Source of the DNA: a bacterium
GTDB lineage: Bacteria; Planctomycetota; JAFGQW01
Length of the DNA stretch: 64,000 bases
Reading direction: 5' to 3'
NCBI GenBank assembly: GCA_030426805.1
Contig: JAUHXU010000004.1
Coordinates: 46,792-110,791 of the forward strand
The position numbers and the translations under genes were made by a program. A model generated the notes under the pieces. The model was not told where the DNA came from. It did not search any database and was given only the letters and a program-made list of their open reading frames with translations. Positions 25,907 to 29,675 of the stretch are shown piece after piece (position 1 is the first letter of the stretch; each line of letters starts with the position of its first letter).

Positions 25907-26878
25907 GTGGAAGCGATCGCGAACACCTTCGTCGGCATCGACGGCGGCGGCACGAAGACCGTCGCGGTGCTGGCCACCGCCGACGGACGCATCGTCGCGA
26001 CCGCGCGCGGCGGCAGCGGCAACCCCACGTCGCTCGGCGCGGCGCGCTTCGAGGCGACGCTGCGTGCCCTCCTCGCCGAGCTGCTCGCCGACCGGCCACC
26101 GTCGACCGTCCGTCATGCGACCCTCGGCCTCGCCGGTGTCGGCGACCCGTCGGTGCGCGCCCACGTCCGGGACGTGTGCGTCCGTGCCGGGCTGGCCGAC
26201 GTCACGGTGATCACCGACGCCGAACTGCACCACGACGCGGCCCACGGCGATGCGCCCGGGATCGTGCTCGCGGTCGGGACCGGCTCGGTCGCGACCGGTC
26301 GCGGCGTCGGCGGTTCGCTCGTCGTCTGCGGCGGCTGGGGCTACCTCCTCGGCGACGACGGCAGCGGCTACGCGATCGGGCGCGCTGCGATCCGCGCGGC
26401 GCTCGACGCGCATGAGCGTGGAGCCGCACCCGACGCGCTCGTGTCGGCGCTCCTCGCCCACTACGACGCGTCGGCGGCGCCGGAGTTGATCGCGACCGTC
26501 CACGCCGCGCCATGCCCGCAGGCCCGTGTGGCCGAGGCCGCGACGATCGTCGCCGCGTGTGCCGCAGCGGGTGAGGCCACCGCGCGTGCGCTGGTCGATG
26601 CCGCGGCGCGCGACCTCGTGACCCTCGCCCGGCGCGCGATCGACCGCGCGGAACTCGTACGACCCGTCCCGACGGTGCTCGTCGGCGGCCTGCTCGAGCC
26701 GGGCGGTCCGCTCGCGACGGCATTCGACCGTGCCGCGCACGACGCCGGCCTCGCACTCGAACGTCGCGACCTGCGCCGCACGACGCTCGGTGCCGCGATC
26801 GCGCGTGCCGTGGCCTCGACGGATCTCACCCCCGACCCCTCCGCCCAGGAGCGAATCGATGCGATCGATCTTCCGTAG
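25907..26878 (+). CDS. N-acetylglucosamine kinase (BadF/BadG/BcrA/BcrD ATPase family)
   Basis: Motifs FVGIDGGGTKT, LAVGTGS and GGWGYLLGDDGSGY. GTG start at 25907. Confidence 0.7.
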   Translation: MEAIANTFVGIDGGGTKTVAVLATADGRIVATARGGSGNPTSLGAARFEATLRALLAELLADRPPSTVRHATLGLAGVGDPSVRAHVRDVCVRAGLADVTVITDAELHHDAAHGDAPGIVLAVGTGSVATGRGVGGSLVVCGGWGYLLGDDGSGYAIGRAAIRAALDAHERGAAPDALVSALLAHYDASAAPELIATVHAAPCPQARVAEAATIVAACAAAGEATARALVDAAARDLVTLARRAIDRAELVRPVPTVLVGGLLEPGGPLATAFDRAAHDAGLALERRDLRRTTLGAAIARAVASTDLTPDPSAQERIDAIDLP

Positions 26879-29675
26879 CGCCTGCGTCGCGCTGCTTCTC
26901 GGCGCCGCGATGTGCGGCGCGGTGTCCGCTCAACCGACCGATCCGGTCGCGCAGCGACTCGGCACAATGACGCTCGACGAGAAGGTCGGGCAGTTGCTCG
27001 CGATCGCGTTCACCCCGCGCGACGGGGCGACGGCTGCCGGCTTCGACAAGCACGTCCGCGACGTCCGCGAACTCGGGATCGGCGGCGTCACGTTCTTCCG
27101 CGGATCGGTCGGGCCCGTGCGGGAGTGCCTCGCCGCGCTTTCCGCAGCCGCGAAGACGCCGCTCGCGGTCATGTCGGACGTCGAGTTCGGGCTGCCGATG
27201 CGCGTCAACGAGGGGACGCGGATGCCGCTCAACATGGCGCAGGGGGCGACCGGCGATCCGTCGCTCGCCTACCAGGCGGGACGGGTGACGGCGATCGAGG
27301 CGCGGGCGGTCGGCATCCACGTCGCGTTCGCGCCCGTCGTCGATGTGAACAACAACCCCGGCAACATCATCATCAACACGCGTTCCTACGGCGAGGATCC
27401 GGCCGCGGTCGGGCGCTTCGGGAGCGCGTTCATCCGCGGGCTGCAGGAGCACGGTGTGTTCGCGACCGCGAAGCACTACCCCGGTCACGGCGACACGTCG
27501 GTCGACTCGCACCTGTCGCTGCCGACGATCGACGCGTCTCGCGAGCGGCTGGAACGCGTCGAACTGGCGCCGTTCGCCGCGGCCGTCAAGGCGGGGGTGC
27601 GGTGCGTGATGGTCGGGCACATCACGTTCAGTCGCGTCCCGGAGATGAAGGGGCGGCCGGCGAGCCTCGACCCGCACTTCGTGGATCGGGTCTTGCGCGG
27701 GTCGATGGGCTTCGACGGCCTCGTGATCACGGACGCGATGAACATGGGCGGCATCACGGAGCACTACGGGCACGGCGAGGCCGCGGTGATGGCGATCGAG
27801 GCCGGCGTGGACGTCGTGCTGATGCCGGGTGACGTGCGTGCCGCGCACGCCGCGCTCGTCGCCGCGGTGAAGACCGGCCGACTCGCGAAGGCGCGGCTCG
27901 ACGCGTCGGTCGAGCGCATCCTGCGATTGAAGGCCGATGCGGGCCTGCTCGGGGGCGGCACGCGGCCGGCGCCGGGCGCGGTCGAGACCGTCCTGCGCGC
28001 GCCGGATCACGTCGCGGTCGCCGAGCGGATCGCCGATCGGGCGGTCACGCTCGTCGCCGACCGGCGCGGTGTCGTTCCGCTCGCCGCGGAGCGACTGCGC
28101 GACGTCGTCGTCGTCACGGTGACCGACGAGCGCCGCGGTCGAACCCGAGGCGGTGCGTTTCTCGCCGAAGTGCGTCGGCGGATCCCGGACGCGGCGGCGG
28201 AGCGGATCGACCCGACGACGTCCGCGAAGGCAGCGGCGGCGATCGTCTCGCGCGCGAAGAAGGCGGACGCGGTCGTCGTCGCGATCACCGTGAAATGGCG
28301 CGACCGCAAGGGGAGCATCGCGCTGCCGGACGAGACCGTCGAGCGACTCGCGCGCCTCCTTCGGATCAAGACGCCGCTCGTCGTCGTCGCGTTCGGGTCG
28401 CCGTACGTGCTCGGACAACTCCCCGCTGCACCGGCGGCGCTGTGCGTCTACGACCCGTCGACGCTCGCGGCCGGCGCGGCGGCGCGGGCGCTCTTCGGCG
28501 AGTGCGCGATCGGCGGGCGGCTGCCGGTCTCGATTCCCGGACGTTTCGCGCGCGGCGTCGGGCTCGACCGAGCCGCCCGTACGATGACACTCGAGCGGGC
28601 GCTCGACGACAAGCGGTTCCGGGCGGCGTGGTCGGTGCTCGAGGAGCGGATCGAGAAGAAGGTCTTCCCCGGCGCCCAGGTCGCGATCGTGCGCGATGGC
28701 GCGCTCGTCGCGAGCCGCGGCTTCGGCCGACTGACCTACGACGACAACGCGTCGAAGGTGACGACGGAGACGGTCTACGACGTCGCGTCGGTGACGAAGG
28801 TCGCTGCGACGACGACGGTCGCGATGGTGCTCGCCGATCGCGGGGCGCTCGACCTCGACAAGCCGGTCGTCGACTACCTGCCGTCGTTCAGCGGCGGCGG
28901 CAAGGAGGGCGTCACGGTGCGCCACCTGCTGACGCACACGTCGGGCTTGCCGGCGTGGGCGAAGCTGTGGAGCCACGGGGATCGCGCAGCGGCGTTGGCC
29001 TACATCGACGGCGTGACGCTCGCGTCACGGCCGGGGGCGAAGGCGAAGTACTCCGACCTCGGGATGATCACGCTCGGGCGCGTGCTCGAACGCGTCGGCA
29101 AGGCACCGCTCGACGAACTCGCGCGCGACCTCGTGTTTGCACCGCTCGGGATGACGCATACGACGTTCCGGCCGCCGGCCGCGTGGCGACCGCGGATCGC
29201 GCCGACCGAGGAGGGGGGCGACCTCGATCGCGGGCGCATTCTCGGCGACGTGCACGACGAGAACGCCCATTTCCTCGGCGGCGTCGCCGGGCACGCGGGA
29301 GTCTTCTCGACGGCCGAGGACCTCGCGGTCCTCGCGCAGGCCTACCTCGACGGCGGCATGCACCGCCATCATCGACTGTTCCGACCGGCGACCGTCGAGG
29401 CGTGGACGTCGCGACAGAACCTCGTCGTAGGCAGCAGTCGGGCCCTCGGTTGGGACACGCCGAGCGCGCGCGGCTCGCTCGCCGGCGACCGCTTCTCGAA
29501 GCAGAGCTTCGGCCACACCGGCTTCACCGGGACGTCGATCTGGGTCGACCGGGCGCGTCGCATCGCGATCGTCTTGCTGACGAACCGCGTGCACCCGACC
29601 CGCACCCGTGGCGGCATGCGGGAAGCGCGCCGGGCGTTTTACAACGCGGCGATGAAGGCGGCGATCGCCCGGTGA
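26859..29675 (+). CDS. fusion: GH3 beta-N-acetylhexosaminidase (NagZ-like, two-domain) + C-terminal beta-lactamase-family serine hydrolase
   Basis: Signal peptide present. GH3 motifs include KHYPGHGDTSVDSHL and the catalytic region VITDAMNMGGI. The C-terminal ~340 aa has SVTK (SxxK) and HLLTHTSGLP, matching class-C/PBP4*-like beta-lactamases. Confidence 0.8.
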   Translation: MRSIFRSACVALLLGAAMCGAVSAQPTDPVAQRLGTMTLDEKVGQLLAIAFTPRDGATAAGFDKHVRDVRELGIGGVTFFRGSVGPVRECLAALSAAAKTPLAVMSDVEFGLPMRVNEGTRMPLNMAQGATGDPSLAYQAGRVTAIEARAVGIHVAFAPVVDVNNNPGNIIINTRSYGEDPAAVGRFGSAFIRGLQEHGVFATAKHYPGHGDTSVDSHLSLPTIDASRERLERVELAPFAAAVKAGVRCVMVGHITFSRVPEMKGRPASLDPHFVDRVLRGSMGFDGLVITDAMNMGGITEHYGHGEAAVMAIEAGVDVVLMPGDVRAAHAALVAAVKTGRLAKARLDASVERILRLKADAGLLGGGTRPAPGAVETVLRAPDHVAVAERIADRAVTLVADRRGVVPLAAERLRDVVVVTVTDERRGRTRGGAFLAEVRRRIPDAAAERIDPTTSAKAAAAIVSRAKKADAVVVAITVKWRDRKGSIALPDETVERLARLLRIKTPLVVVAFGSPYVLGQLPAAPAALCVYDPSTLAAGAAARALFGECAIGGRLPVSIPGRFARGVGLDRAARTMTLERALDDKRFRAAWSVLEERIEKKVFPGAQVAIVRDGALVASRGFGRLTYDDNASKVTTETVYDVASVTKVAATTTVAMVLADRGALDLDKPVVDYLPSFSGGGKEGVTVRHLLTHTSGLPAWAKLWSHGDRAAALAYIDGVTLASRPGAKAKYSDLGMITLGRVLERVGKAPLDELARDLVFAPLGMTHTTFRPPAAWRPRIAPTEEGGDLDRGRILGDVHDENAHFLGGVAGHAGVFSTAEDLAVLAQAYLDGGMHRHHRLFRPATVEAWTSRQNLVVGSSRALGWDTPSARGSLAGDRFSKQSFGHTGFTGTSIWVDRARRIAIVLLTNRVHPTRTRGGMREARRAFYNAAMKAAIAR

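What the first reader, a model, noticed from the sequence alone, without database searches (positions are those of the whole stretch)
26859..29675. NagZ (GH3) fused to a class-C-like beta-lactamase/PBP fold and coupled to the symporter-NamZ gene
The 938-aa secreted protein joins a two-domain GH3 beta-N-acetylhexosaminidase to a C-terminal serine-hydrolase domain (SVTK, HLLTHTSGLP). This mirrors the B. subtilis ybbD (NagZ) / ybbE (beta-lactamase-like) neighbourhood collapsed into one polypeptide. The beta-lactamase-like module may act as a D-Ala-D-Ala carboxy- or endopeptidase, or an esterase, trimming peptide stems before sugar release. The GTGA overlap with the downstream gene implies translational coupling.
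Basis: partly seen in the sequence, partly recalled or inferred. Interest (0 to 1): 0.6.

Follow-up and report, generated by a model that had tools for sequence, protein, structure and literature searches.

The report
Two-in-one cell-wall recycling enzyme
A secreted planctomycete protein joins a sugar-clipping enzyme (NagZ) to a relative of the Bacillus peptide-clipping enzyme AmiE; the pairing is common but little studied, and probably helps bacteria dismantle and re-use cell-wall fragments.

Summary
Window 26859-29675 (+) encodes a 938-aa exported protein with GH3_N, GH3_C and a PF00144 serine-hydrolase domain. It overlaps by GTGA a downstream gene that fuses a sodium:solute symporter to NamZ.

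The interpretation needs one correction. B. subtilis YbbE is now AmiE, an exo-MurNAc-L-Ala amidase, and it is orthologous to E. coli PBP4B/YfeW (53% identity). The C-domain is closest to this pair: 31-35% identity and 168 bits, against at most 75 bits for any solved structure. It shares their motif set (SxTK, YSD, HTG, VHDE, HAGxF), which AmpC and AmpH lack. Catalytic residues of both halves are invariant in 116 fusion homologues.

This AmiE-like domain also occurs as bla-GH3, bla-NamZ, GH3-bla-NamZ and symporter-bla-NamZ, next to MurK-like kinase, MurQ and NamZ genes in several phyla.

Most likely function: a periplasmic NagZ/AmiE bifunctional exo-enzyme that feeds NamZ and a MurNAc symporter.

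The architecture is not new. R. marinus RmNag3 (2020) has it, and thousands of database proteins do too. However, no fusion's C-domain has been assayed. This is a new member of a known kind, of moderate-to-low interest.

The parts
26859..29675 (+). Gene for the 938-aa NagZ / AmiE-like fusion protein (stop codon included)
   Evidence: ORF, SD and GC3; Pfam domains; identical public protein P0001; AF2 model with pLDDT 92.6 and pTM 0.89
26859..26930 (+). Predicted Sec signal peptide (aa 1-24, cleavage after VSA)
   Evidence: Read from the sequence: n-region with two Arg, hydrophobic core, A-x-A-like site. In the AF2 model, the region right after the leader helix has low pLDDT (aa 20-25 below 50). 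No dedicated predictor was run.
26970..27929 (+). GH3 N-terminal (beta/alpha)8 catalytic domain, aa 38-357. NagZ motif KHYPGHGDTSVDSH at aa 205-218; Asp-His dyad D216/H218 (nt 27504-27512); nucleophile D292 (nt 27732-27734)
   Evidence: PF00933 E 3e-87. Alignment to BsNagZ D232/H234/D318. D216, H218 and D292 invariant in 116 homologues. Foldseek top hit is BsNagZ 4gyj, E 1e-43.
28047..28544 (+). GH3 C-terminal alpha/beta sandwich domain, aa 397-562
   Evidence: PF01915 E 2e-11; aligned over its full length to 6k5j and 3bmx
28638..29633 (+). AmiE/PBP4B-like serine-hydrolase domain (PF00144), aa 594-925. S644-V-T-K647 (nt 28788-28799), Y731-S-D733 (nt 29049-29057), V798-H-D-E801, H812-A-G-V-F816, H886-T-G888 (nt 29514-29522)
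   Evidence: PF00144 E 8e-71. NCBIfam PBP4B is the best hit at 181 bits. 31% identity to AmiE and 35% to YfeW, both 168 bits. Motifs invariant in 116 homologues. Signature shared only with AmiE/YfeW. C-domain model pLDDT 91.9.
29672..29675 (+). GTGA overlap: start codon of the symporter-NamZ gene overlapping the stop codon of the target
   Evidence: start supported by homology beginning at nt 29681
29672..32422 (+). Downstream partner gene: SSS-family symporter (aa 36-454) fused to NamZ exo-beta-N-acetylmuramidase (aa 552-898), with a final TM/lipobox-like segment and a Pro-rich linker in between
   Evidence: Pfam. SSF part 61% identical to the symporter next to the Calditrichota fusion; NamZ part 54% identical to a standalone NamZ. 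Hydropathy. Related fusions.
25907..26878 (+). Upstream BadF/BadG/BcrA/BcrD-family sugar kinase (NagK/MurK-like), overlapping the target's start by 20 nt
   Evidence: PF01869 E 2e-25. NCBIfam NagK_SO3507 99.5 bits, below cutoff. 35% identical to the kinase beside the Calditrichota fusion. T. forsythia MurK is in PF01869 (PMC5790795).
24678..25871 (+). First gene of the same-strand run: NAGPA (phosphodiester glycosidase) + Golvesin_C, 397 aa
32510..35467 (+). Last gene of the run: Germane + Golvesin_C + Amidase_3 (MurNAc-L-Ala amidase) + fn3, 985 aa
23233..24579 (-). Divergent NagX/DUF5009-like membrane protein, conserved beside the fusion gene in other phyla
   Evidence: Pfam DUF5009; NCBIfam NagX 131 bits, below cutoff; homologues in L086, L087 and L088

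Best explanation
The protein is an exported, bifunctional exo-acting peptidoglycan-salvage enzyme.

Proposed pathway:
1. The N-terminal two-domain GH3 module is a NagZ-type beta-N-acetylglucosaminidase. It removes the non-reducing-end GlcNAc from muropeptides or glycan strands.
2. The C-terminal PF00144 module belongs to the AmiE/PBP4B branch of the serine beta-lactamase/PBP fold. It uses Ser644/Lys647/Tyr731 to cut the amide between the exposed terminal MurNAc lactyl group and L-Ala, releasing the stem peptide.
3. The peptide-free terminal MurNAc is removed by the NamZ domain, which is tethered on the periplasmic side of the next gene's SSS symporter.
4. The symporter, which is MurT-like, imports MurNAc.
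5. The upstream MurK/NagK-like kinase phosphorylates it.

Shown here: the domain identities, intact and conserved catalytic residues in both halves, closest homology to AmiE/PBP4B, a compact high-confidence two-enzyme model, and conserved linkage to NamZ, symporter, kinase and MurQ.

Inferred: the amidase chemistry, the order of reactions, the periplasmic location of NamZ, the symporter's substrate, and translational coupling.
For: GH3 half:
- PF00933 E 3e-87.
- Best solved relatives are GH3 beta-N-acetylglucosaminidases (6k5j at 1.4e-79; BsNagZ 3bmx at 1.2e-69).
- The NagZ-specific motif KH(F/I)PG(H/L)GxxxxD(S/T)H (quoted in PMC5615308) is present as KHYPGHGDTSVDSH.
- D216/H218/D292 align with BsNagZ D232/H234/D318 and are invariant in 116 homologues.
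- The Foldseek top hit is BsNagZ bound to GlcNAc-MurNAc.

C-domain:
- 168 bits (E 1e-52) to both the B. stercoris AmiE orthologue and E. coli YfeW, against at most 74.6 bits for any PDB chain.
- NCBIfam ranking: PBP4B 181 bits, then LipE 81, AmpH 70, class C 66.
- AmiE and YfeW are orthologues (53% identity; 762 and 890 bits on the PBP4B model).
- The signature YSD / HTG / VHDE / HAGxF is shared with AmiE and YfeW and absent from AmpH and AmpC.
- S644, K647, Y731, D733, H886 and G888 are invariant.

Function of AmiE and the NagZ, AmiE, NamZ order: PMC8054146, where all three enzymes were needed to digest peptidoglycan.

Fusion evidence: the same AmiE-type domain occurs as GH3-bla-NamZ, SSF-bla-NamZ (65 of the top 120 hits), and bla-NamZ and bla-GH3.

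Context: kinase, SSF, MurQ-type SIS, NamZ, Amidase_3, AmgK/MurU-like, MurA, NagA-like, Ala racemase, DAP decarboxylase and L-Ala-D/L-Glu epimerase-type genes flank fusion homologues in six loci.

Structure: full-length AF2 model with pLDDT 92.6 and pTM 0.89, and no flexible linker.

Paradigm: T. forsythia murT (sodium symporter superfamily), murK (PF01869), murQ (PMC5790795).
Against: - No member of the fusion family has had its C-domain assayed. For RmNag3 only the glycosidase was characterised (PMC6987092).
- The C-domain is only 31-35% identical to AmiE/YfeW. It scores 181 bits against the 385-bit equivalog cutoff and lacks their four or five insertions and C-terminal extension. Its specificity could therefore differ.
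- E. coli PBP4B is named in the literature for penicillin binding and DD-carboxypeptidase activity (Vega & Ayala 2006, title cited in PMC5061867), not amidase activity.
- The nearest solved structures are esterases, acyltransferases and class C beta-lactamases at 19-24% identity, so the fold does not fix the chemistry.
- A conventional Amidase_3 protein is encoded two genes downstream and could supply peptide removal.
- No MurQ, AmgK or MurU is found within the 64-kb window, so the cytoplasmic end of the pathway is not seen here.
Confidence: 0.65

Rival explanations
1. The C-domain is a DD-carboxypeptidase or DD-endopeptidase. It would trim terminal D-Ala or open cross-links in muropeptides, preparing stems for other enzymes rather than detaching them from MurNAc.
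For: PF00144 includes DD-peptidases, and AmpH is a weak hit (69.5 bits). E. coli PBP4B, 35% identical, is named for DD-carboxypeptidase activity (title cited in PMC5061867). The HTG third motif is that of the Streptomyces R61 DD-peptidase (my own knowledge).
Against: - The B. subtilis protein AmiE, characterised as an exo-MurNAc-L-Ala amidase (PMC8054146), has a B. stercoris orthologue that matches the C-domain equally well (168 bits).
- Repeated fusion to NamZ, which needs a peptide-free terminal MurNAc, fits stem removal rather than trimming.
- Separate S11/S13 DD-peptidases are encoded in the window and in related clusters.
Confidence: 0.13
2. The C-domain is an esterase, for example a peptidoglycan de-O-acetylase. 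It would remove 6-O-acetyl groups from MurNAc, or another ester decoration, that would otherwise block the exo-glycosidases.
For: The nearest solved folds are the periplasmic esterase EstG and family VIII carboxylesterases (TM 0.73-0.79). NCBIfam gives weak hits to LipE, LipL and AcmB. A de-blocking step next to NagZ and NamZ would make biological sense.
Against: Sequence similarity to those esterases is low (19-24% identity; at most 62 bits) and much weaker than to AmiE/PBP4B. The subfamily signature motifs are those of AmiE/PBP4B.
Confidence: 0.1
3. The C-domain is a non-catalytic or regulatory muropeptide-binding module. It would only tune the substrate specificity of the GH3 domain, as suggested loosely for RmNag3.
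For: The RmNag3 authors speculated that the domain narrows GH3 specificity (PMC6987092). The rigid packing in the model (pTM 0.89) would allow this.
Against: Every residue of the acylation machinery (S644, K647, Y731, H886, G888) is invariant across 116 homologues down to 41% identity. The same domain occurs standalone and fused to NamZ without any GH3.
Confidence: 0.04
4. The C-domain is a genuine beta-lactamase conferring antibiotic resistance, fused to NagZ because of the NagZ-AmpC regulatory link.
For: Pfam name; weak class C hits (65.8 bits).
Against: - The score is far below the class C cutoff (415 bits).
- YSD and HTG replace the class C YxN and KTG motifs.
- The context is sugar and peptide salvage, not resistance.
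Confidence: 0.02

Closest known systems
RmNag3 of Rhodothermus marinus DSM 4253 (PMC6987092, 2020)
   Same: Same described architecture: signal peptide, GH3 domain 1, GH3 domain 2 and a C-terminal beta-lactamase domain. It clusters with beta-N-acetylglucosaminidases and is proposed to be periplasmic and linked to peptidoglycan turnover. The authors noted other database proteins with this architecture.
   Different: It comes from a different phylum (Rhodothermota versus Planctomycetota). I could not fetch its sequence, so identity was not measured. Its beta-lactamase domain was neither modelled nor assayed, and it was not connected to AmiE. No symporter-NamZ partner was reported.
B. subtilis NagZ (YbbD) + AmiE (YbbE) + NamZ (YbbC) exo-lytic trio (PMC8054146; Litzinger 2010, cited there)
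   Same: The same three enzyme families, the same proposed order (GlcNAc off, peptide off, MurNAc off), all secreted, and encoded together. The GH3 half aligns over its full length to BsNagZ with conserved catalytic residues. The C-domain is 31% identical to the AmiE orthologue and carries the same motif set.
   Different: In Bacillus these are three separate proteins with gene order amiE-nagZ-namZ, and uptake is through a PTS (MurP). Here NagZ and the AmiE-like module form one chain in the opposite order. NamZ is fused to an SSS symporter, and a BadF/G kinase replaces PTS phosphorylation. The C-domain lacks the AmiE insertions.
E. coli PBP4B (YfeW), last gene of the murQ-murP-yfeW operon
   Same: 35% identical to the C-domain over 353 aa. 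It is the best NCBIfam family for the C-domain, has the same SxTK/YSD/HTG/VHDE/HAGLFS signature, and is encoded with MurNAc catabolic genes.
   Different: It is a standalone 434-aa protein that carries the AmiE-type insertions. It is annotated as a low-affinity PBP/DD-carboxypeptidase. The window's domain scores below the equivalog cutoff (181 vs 385 bits).
Tannerella forsythia murT-murK-murQ MurNAc salvage operon with NamZ1/NamZ2 (PMC5790795; bioRxiv 10.1101/2021.12.02.470905)
   Same: A non-PTS route: a sodium-symporter-superfamily MurNAc transporter, a PF01869 kinase and periplasmic NamZ enzymes that feed the transporters.
   Different: In T. forsythia the components are separate proteins. 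No NagZ-AmiE fusion or transporter-NamZ fusion is described there.

Membership tests
GH3 NagZ-type beta-N-acetylglucosaminidase (two-domain BsNagZ type) | GH3 N-terminal (beta/alpha)8 domain plus GH3 C-terminal domain | tested here: met
   PF00933 3e-87 and PF01915 2e-11; full-length alignment to 6k5j and 3bmx; Foldseek TM 0.79-0.88 on the targets
GH3 NagZ-type beta-N-acetylglucosaminidase (two-domain BsNagZ type) | Asp nucleophile, and the Asp-His dyad within KH(F/I)PG(H/L)GxxxxD(S/T)H | tested here: met
   KHYPGHGDTSVDSH at aa 205-218. Tyr occupies motif position 3, as in 24 of 116 homologues. D216/H218/D292 align with BsNagZ D232/H234/D318 and are invariant.
GH3 NagZ-type beta-N-acetylglucosaminidase (two-domain BsNagZ type) | Score above the NCBIfam NagZ equivalog cutoff (NF003740, built on single-domain cytoplasmic NagZ) | tested here: not met
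   154.9 bits against a cutoff of 207. That model represents the single-domain proteobacterial type, not the two-domain secreted type.
GH3 NagZ-type beta-N-acetylglucosaminidase (two-domain BsNagZ type) | Hydrolysis of pNP-GlcNAc and GlcNAc-MurNAc | not testable with these tools
   Needs an enzyme assay
AmiE / PBP4B (NCBIfam NF002968) exo-MurNAc-L-Ala amidase branch of PF00144 | PF00144 fold with a Ser-x-Thr-Lys nucleophile motif | tested here: met
   PF00144 8e-71; SVTK 644-647 with S, T (113 of 116) and K conserved; model pLDDT 91.9 with beta-lactamase-fold neighbours
AmiE / PBP4B (NCBIfam NF002968) exo-MurNAc-L-Ala amidase branch of PF00144 | Branch signature Y-S-D, H-T-G, G-[ED]-V-H-D-E and H-A-G-x-F (in place of class C/AmpH YxN and KTG) | tested here: met
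   Alignment with B. stercoris AmiE, E. coli YfeW, AmpH and AmpC; invariant in 116 homologues. I derived this signature here from few sequences; it is not a published definition.
AmiE / PBP4B (NCBIfam NF002968) exo-MurNAc-L-Ala amidase branch of PF00144 | Score at or above the curated equivalog cutoff (385 bits) | tested here: not met
   181 bits, whereas AmiE scores 762 and YfeW 890. The domain is therefore a related subfamily, not an equivalog. A standalone relative, P0379, scores 196.
AmiE / PBP4B (NCBIfam NF002968) exo-MurNAc-L-Ala amidase branch of PF00144 | AmiE/YfeW-specific insertions and C-terminal extension | tested here: not met
   Absent from all eight fusion C-domains aligned
AmiE / PBP4B (NCBIfam NF002968) exo-MurNAc-L-Ala amidase branch of PF00144 | Encoded with MurNAc-salvage genes | tested here: met
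   Window: kinase, SSF-NamZ and Amidase_3. Homologous clusters add MurQ-type SIS, NamZ and AmgK/MurU-like genes. MurQ itself is not in the window.
AmiE / PBP4B (NCBIfam NF002968) exo-MurNAc-L-Ala amidase branch of PF00144 | Release of stem peptide from non-reducing-end MurNAc-peptide | not testable with these tools
   Needs an enzyme assay with LC-MS
Class C beta-lactamase | SxxK + YxN + KTG motifs and a score above the family cutoff | tested here: not met
   YSD and HTG replace YxN and KTG; 65.8 bits against a cutoff of 415
AmpH-type DD-carboxypeptidase/endopeptidase | Score above the NF007943 cutoff; YSN/KTG motifs | tested here: not met
   69.5 bits against a cutoff of 266; motifs differ
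RmNag3-type three-domain GH3 | Signal peptide + GH3_N + GH3_C + C-terminal beta-lactamase domain | tested here: met
   architecture as described in PMC6987092
RmNag3-type three-domain GH3 | Direct sequence relatedness to RmNag3 | not tested
   The RmNag3 sequence could not be fetched.

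The most novel reading that the evidence does not exclude
The fusions may mark a physically coupled, membrane-tethered disassembly line for peptidoglycan. In this reading, the rigid NagZ/AmiE-like enzyme docks onto the periplasmic NamZ domain of the symporter. GlcNAc, stem peptide and MurNAc would then be stripped processively from one glycan end, with MurNAc handed directly into the transporter.

A corollary follows from the shared branch signature. The whole AmiE/PBP4B branch, including the long-enigmatic E. 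coli PBP4B, would be MurNAc-L-Ala amidases rather than penicillin-binding DD-peptidases.

Supporting observations: the shuffled fusion set (GH3-bla, bla-GH3, bla-NamZ, GH3-bla-NamZ, SSF-NamZ, SSF-bla-NamZ) and the compact model (pTM 0.89). Neither shows a complex or channelling.
Probability: 0.2. Interest if true: 0.6.

Novelty: new member of a known kind. Interest (0 to 1): 0.33.

Why it matters
This gives a concrete, testable function for a very large and widely distributed group of proteins currently annotated only as 'GH3 domain-containing protein / serine hydrolase'. The C-domain alone has 4,629 representative clusters at E <= 1e-30.

It extends the Bacillus NagZ-AmiE-NamZ exo-lytic pathway to Planctomycetota, Calditrichota, Marinimicrobia, Acidobacteriota and other groups, where uptake uses a symporter and a kinase instead of a PTS.

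It is also a warning that these PF00144 domains should not be counted as beta-lactamases in resistome surveys.

The fusion network is indirect evidence about the true activity of E. coli PBP4B.

It does not reveal a new kind of system.

Tried and rejected
- **Papers not held.** I tried to read the primary AmiE and BsNagZ papers (Litzinger 2010), but they are not in the library. The AmiE function is taken from later open papers of the same group.
- **B. subtilis 168 not returned.** The genome scan did not return B. subtilis 168 itself. I used B. stercoris (96% NagZ identity) as a proxy for AmiE.
- **Fold search uninformative on chemistry.** It gave a functionally mixed set of neighbours at 19-24% identity and could not discriminate amidase, esterase or peptidase.
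- **Pathway genes not found in the window.** tblastn for MurQ, AmgK, MurU, NagA, the Na/Ala symporter and MR_MLE found none.
- **Promoter/terminator scan.** It gave no promoter hits and terminator hits at chance level, so it says nothing about operon boundaries.
- **TM prediction.** The crude hydropathy method under-called helices. The periplasmic placement of NamZ rests on the short Arg-rich loop, the final hydrophobic segment and the Pro-rich linker, and remains an inference.
- **Rejected readings.** The upstream GTG at 26730 as the start: it gives no signal peptide, has no SD, and public gene calls and homologues support 26859. Also rejected: a true beta-lactamase and a non-catalytic module (see rivals).
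- **Cluster names.** The cluster-member look-up gave no organism names. Taxonomy was inferred from IMPDH neighbours instead.

Full report

Yes. The + strand ORF ending at 29675 has its most credible start at the ATG at 26859. That start is preceded by AGGAG 8 nt upstream and followed directly by a signal-peptide-like leader, MRSIFRSACVALLLGAAMCGAVSA|QP. Codon-position GC (0.71/0.55/0.90) is that of real genes in this 71% GC window. The identical 938-aa product is on record in public assemblies, on contigs up to 698,920 bp.

Pfam finds Glyco_hydro_3 (aa 38-357, 3e-87), Glyco_hydro_3_C (397-562, 2e-11) and Beta-lactamase PF00144 (594-925, 8e-71). The stop TGA (29673-29675) overlaps the GTG (29672-29674) of a 916-aa ORF that is SSF symporter + NamZ_N + NamZ_C. 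Homology to a free-standing symporter begins at nt 29681, which supports that start. The target's own start overlaps the preceding kinase gene by 20 nt.

**2. Source organism**

The window's IMP dehydrogenase has its nearest named relatives (65-77% identity) exclusively in Planctomycetota MAGs. The source is therefore an uncultured, high-GC planctomycete. This is inferred from one marker gene only.

**3. The GH3 half**

- The best solved relatives are GH3 beta-N-acetylglucosaminidases: Paenibacillus 6k5j (1.4e-79) and B. subtilis NagZ/YbbD 3bmx (1.2e-69). The alignments run across both GH3 domains.
- The NagZ-type motif KH(F/I)PG(H/L)GxxxxD(S/T)H (quoted in PMC5615308) is present as KHYPGHGDTSVDSH.
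- D216, H218 and D292 align with the BsNagZ dyad D232/H234 and nucleophile D318. They are invariant in 116 full-length homologues of 41-100% identity.
- The AlphaFold model's top Foldseek hit is BsNagZ in complex with GlcNAc-MurNAc (E 1e-43).

I regard NagZ-type activity as nearly certain, though it has not been assayed.

**4. The C-terminal half**

[quoted passage not shown] It acts after NagZ and before NamZ, and all three enzymes together are needed to digest peptidoglycan from the non-reducing ends (PMC8054146; PMC5061867).

To test the relationship directly, I rebuilt BsNagZ from the PDB alignment and used it to pull Bacillus loci. I then read the operon murQ-murR-murP-amiE-nagZ-namZ in B. 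stercoris.

| Comparison | Result |
|---|---|
| C-domain vs AmiE orthologue | 31% identity over 357 aa, 168 bits, E 1e-52 |
| C-domain vs E. coli YfeW/PBP4B | 35% identity over 353 aa, 168 bits |
| C-domain vs best PDB chain | 74.6 bits |
| AmiE vs YfeW | 53% identity |
| AmiE / YfeW on the NCBIfam PBP4B model | 762 / 890 bits (cutoff 385) |
| C-domain on the NCBIfam PBP4B model | 181 bits, its best family |
| C-domain vs LipE / AmpH / class C | 81 / 70 / 66 bits |

AmiE and YfeW both pass the PBP4B equivalog cutoff, so they are orthologues. The C-domain scores below the cutoff on that model.

An alignment of eight fusion C-domains with AmiE, YfeW, AmpH and AmpC shows a signature shared only by the first three groups: S-x-T-K, Y-S-D, G-[ED]-V-H-D-E, H-A-G-x-F-S and G-H-T-G-[FW]-T-G. 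AmpH and AmpC instead carry Y-x-N and K-T-G. All of these positions are invariant or nearly so in the 116 homologues.

The fusion domains lack four or five insertions and the C-terminal tail of AmiE/YfeW. The domain is therefore a sister subfamily of AmiE/PBP4B, not an equivalog.

The C-domain model is confident (pLDDT 91.9, pTM 0.93). However, its nearest solved structures are EstG, family VIII esterases, an acyltransferase and class C beta-lactamases at 19-24% identity. No AmiE/PBP4B-type structure is solved, and the fold does not settle the chemistry.

**5. How common is the fusion?**

It is very common. All 120 listed hits of the full-length search carry GH3 + PF00144 at about 900-1,000 aa. 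2,215 clusters passed E 1e-10 among the 8,000 candidates scored. Source names include Calditrichota and Marinimicrobia, and JGI's label is 'beta-glucosidase-like glycosyl hydrolase/CubicO group peptidase'.

An exhaustive search with the C-domain alone found 4,629 representatives (50% clusters) at E <= 1e-30. Of the top 150, at least 74 are GH3-bla and 38 are standalone proteins of 470 aa or fewer.

The architecture has also been published. RmNag3 of Rhodothermus marinus is a signal-peptide-bearing GH3 beta-N-acetylglucosaminidase 'with additional beta-lactamase domain', and its authors noted similar database proteins. The extra domain was neither modelled nor assayed, and it was not linked to AmiE (PMC6987092). 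Searches for later work on it found nothing.

**6. Evidence from fusions and context**

The same AmiE-type domain is found in several arrangements:
- GH3-bla-NamZ: P0075 and P0115, about 1,345 aa.
- SSF-bla-NamZ: 65 of the top 120 hits to the downstream protein, including one from Granulicella paludicola. All 65 carry YSD and HAGxF, and 64 carry HTG. In the five I tested by BLASTP, the window's C-domain was the best match among my comparators.
- bla-NamZ, bla-GH3 (reversed order) and bla-AmiA-like.

Gene neighbourhoods of six diverse fusion homologues repeatedly contain a BadF/G kinase, one or two SSF symporters, a SIS/MurQ-type gene, NamZ, Amidase_3 and a DUF5009/NagX-like membrane protein. 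They variously also contain AmgK/MurU-like genes, MurA, NagA-like amidohydrolase, Ala racemase, DAP decarboxylase, an MR_MLE epimerase, M20 peptidases and a Na/Ala symporter.

This matches the T. forsythia paradigm murT (sodium symporter superfamily), murK (PF01869), murQ (PMC5790795).

In the window the same-strand run is:
1. NAGPA+Golvesin_C (24678-25871)
2. kinase (25907-26878)
3. target (26859-29675)
4. SSF-NamZ (29672-32422)
5. Germane+Golvesin_C+Amidase_3+fn3 (32510-35467)

A divergent NagX-like gene lies upstream of this run. MurQ, AmgK, MurU and NagA are not within the 64 kb.

**7. Mechanism proposed**

After export, the GH3 module removes the terminal GlcNAc. The AmiE-like module then cleaves the MurNAc-L-Ala amide of the newly exposed terminal MurNAc. 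NamZ, tethered to the symporter, removes the peptide-free MurNAc. The symporter imports it and the kinase phosphorylates it.

The full-length model is confident (pLDDT 92.6, pTM 0.89). pLDDT stays at 93-98 through the GH3_C/PF00144 junction. This suggests a rigid two-active-site body rather than beads on a string. I could not access the coordinates to measure how the two active sites are arranged.

NamZ's periplasmic location is inferred from three features: a short Arg-containing loop, a last hydrophobic segment that resembles a relic lipoprotein signal (…LVALGALGVGC…), and a Pro-rich linker.

Translational coupling is plausible from the 4-nt and 20-nt overlaps, but it has not been shown. Similar 4-nt overlaps occur in related clusters.

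**8. Rivals**

- DD-carboxy/endopeptidase. This is supported by PBP4B's literature name and the family's DD-peptidase members. It is weakened by AmiE's demonstrated activity and by the NamZ fusions.
- Esterase, for example a de-O-acetylase. This is supported only by structural neighbours.
- Non-catalytic specificity module. This is contradicted by the invariant catalytic residues and by the GH3-free architectures.
- True beta-lactamase. This is contradicted by the motifs, the scores and the context.

A caveat for the preferred reading is that an Amidase_3 protein two genes downstream could also remove stems. However, Bacillus likewise has many such endo-amidases alongside AmiE.

**9. Verdict**

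This is a new (planctomycete) member of a known, abundant architecture.

Its most probable function is NagZ + AmiE-type exo-amidase. That function follows directly from published Bacillus work once YbbE is recognised as AmiE.

What remains open is the untested activity of the C-domain in any fusion, and whether the fusion network reflects a physically coupled disassembly line at the transporter.

Interest is moderate-to-low (0.33).

Noticed in passing
window 29672-32422 (+); also P0147-P0253: The downstream SSF-NamZ fusion in exactly this form is rare: only 4 of the top 120 hits (P0137 itself, P0138, P0139, P0219). By contrast, 65 of the 120 are SSF + AmiE-like PF00144 + NamZ proteins of 1,216-1,459 aa, i.e. 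a transporter carrying two periplasmic peptidoglycan hydrolases. The last hydrophobic segment before NamZ (…AAALVALGALGVGCAANEPSP…) looks like a relic lipoprotein signal peptide.
   Followed up: partly
window 18169-20154 (-): A 661-aa ORF combines Beta-lactamase2 (class A-like, PF13354, 3.6e-70), PG_binding_1 and Peptidase_S11 (DD-carboxypeptidase, 1.9e-50) in one chain. This is an unusual double penicillin-recognising fusion near the salvage cluster.
   Followed up: no
window 23233-24579 (-); L086 1-757, L087 4339-5442, L088 6853-7992: A DUF5009/NagX-like polytopic membrane protein is conserved next to the fusion gene in several phyla. Its NCBIfam match is NagX glucosamine N-acetyltransferase at 131 bits, below cutoff. 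Its role in peptidoglycan salvage is unexplained.
   Followed up: partly
window 24678-25871 (+) and 32510-35467 (+): Two genes of the same run carry a Golvesin_C domain. One carries it with NAGPA (phosphodiester glycosidase). The other carries it with Germane, Amidase_3 and fn3. The function of Golvesin_C here is unknown.
   Followed up: no
L003 4548-5873 vs L082 5103-6407 (outside the window): B. stercoris AmiE and E. coli PBP4B/YfeW are 53% identical, and both pass the NCBIfam 'PBP4B' equivalog. That model names a biochemically characterised MurNAc-L-Ala amidase as a penicillin-binding protein. Either the name or the assumed activity of E. coli PBP4B deserves re-examination.
   Followed up: partly
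window 36991-38523 (-); L088 12927-14189: An Orn/DAP/Arg decarboxylase lies near the fusion gene, both here and in an unrelated homologous cluster. This may link stem-peptide meso-DAP to lysine.
   Followed up: no
window 14168-17095 (+): A 975-aa ORF has a CotH kinase-like domain and a weak EF-hand hit. It appears unrelated to the finding.
   Followed up: no
P0517 (653 aa), P0458, P0444, P0500: There are further architectures of the AmiE-like domain. One is fused to an AmiA-like (PF07313) amidase-like domain. Others are tandem duplicated PF00144 domains with FIVAR or fn3 in proteins of 1,250-1,600 aa.
   Followed up: no
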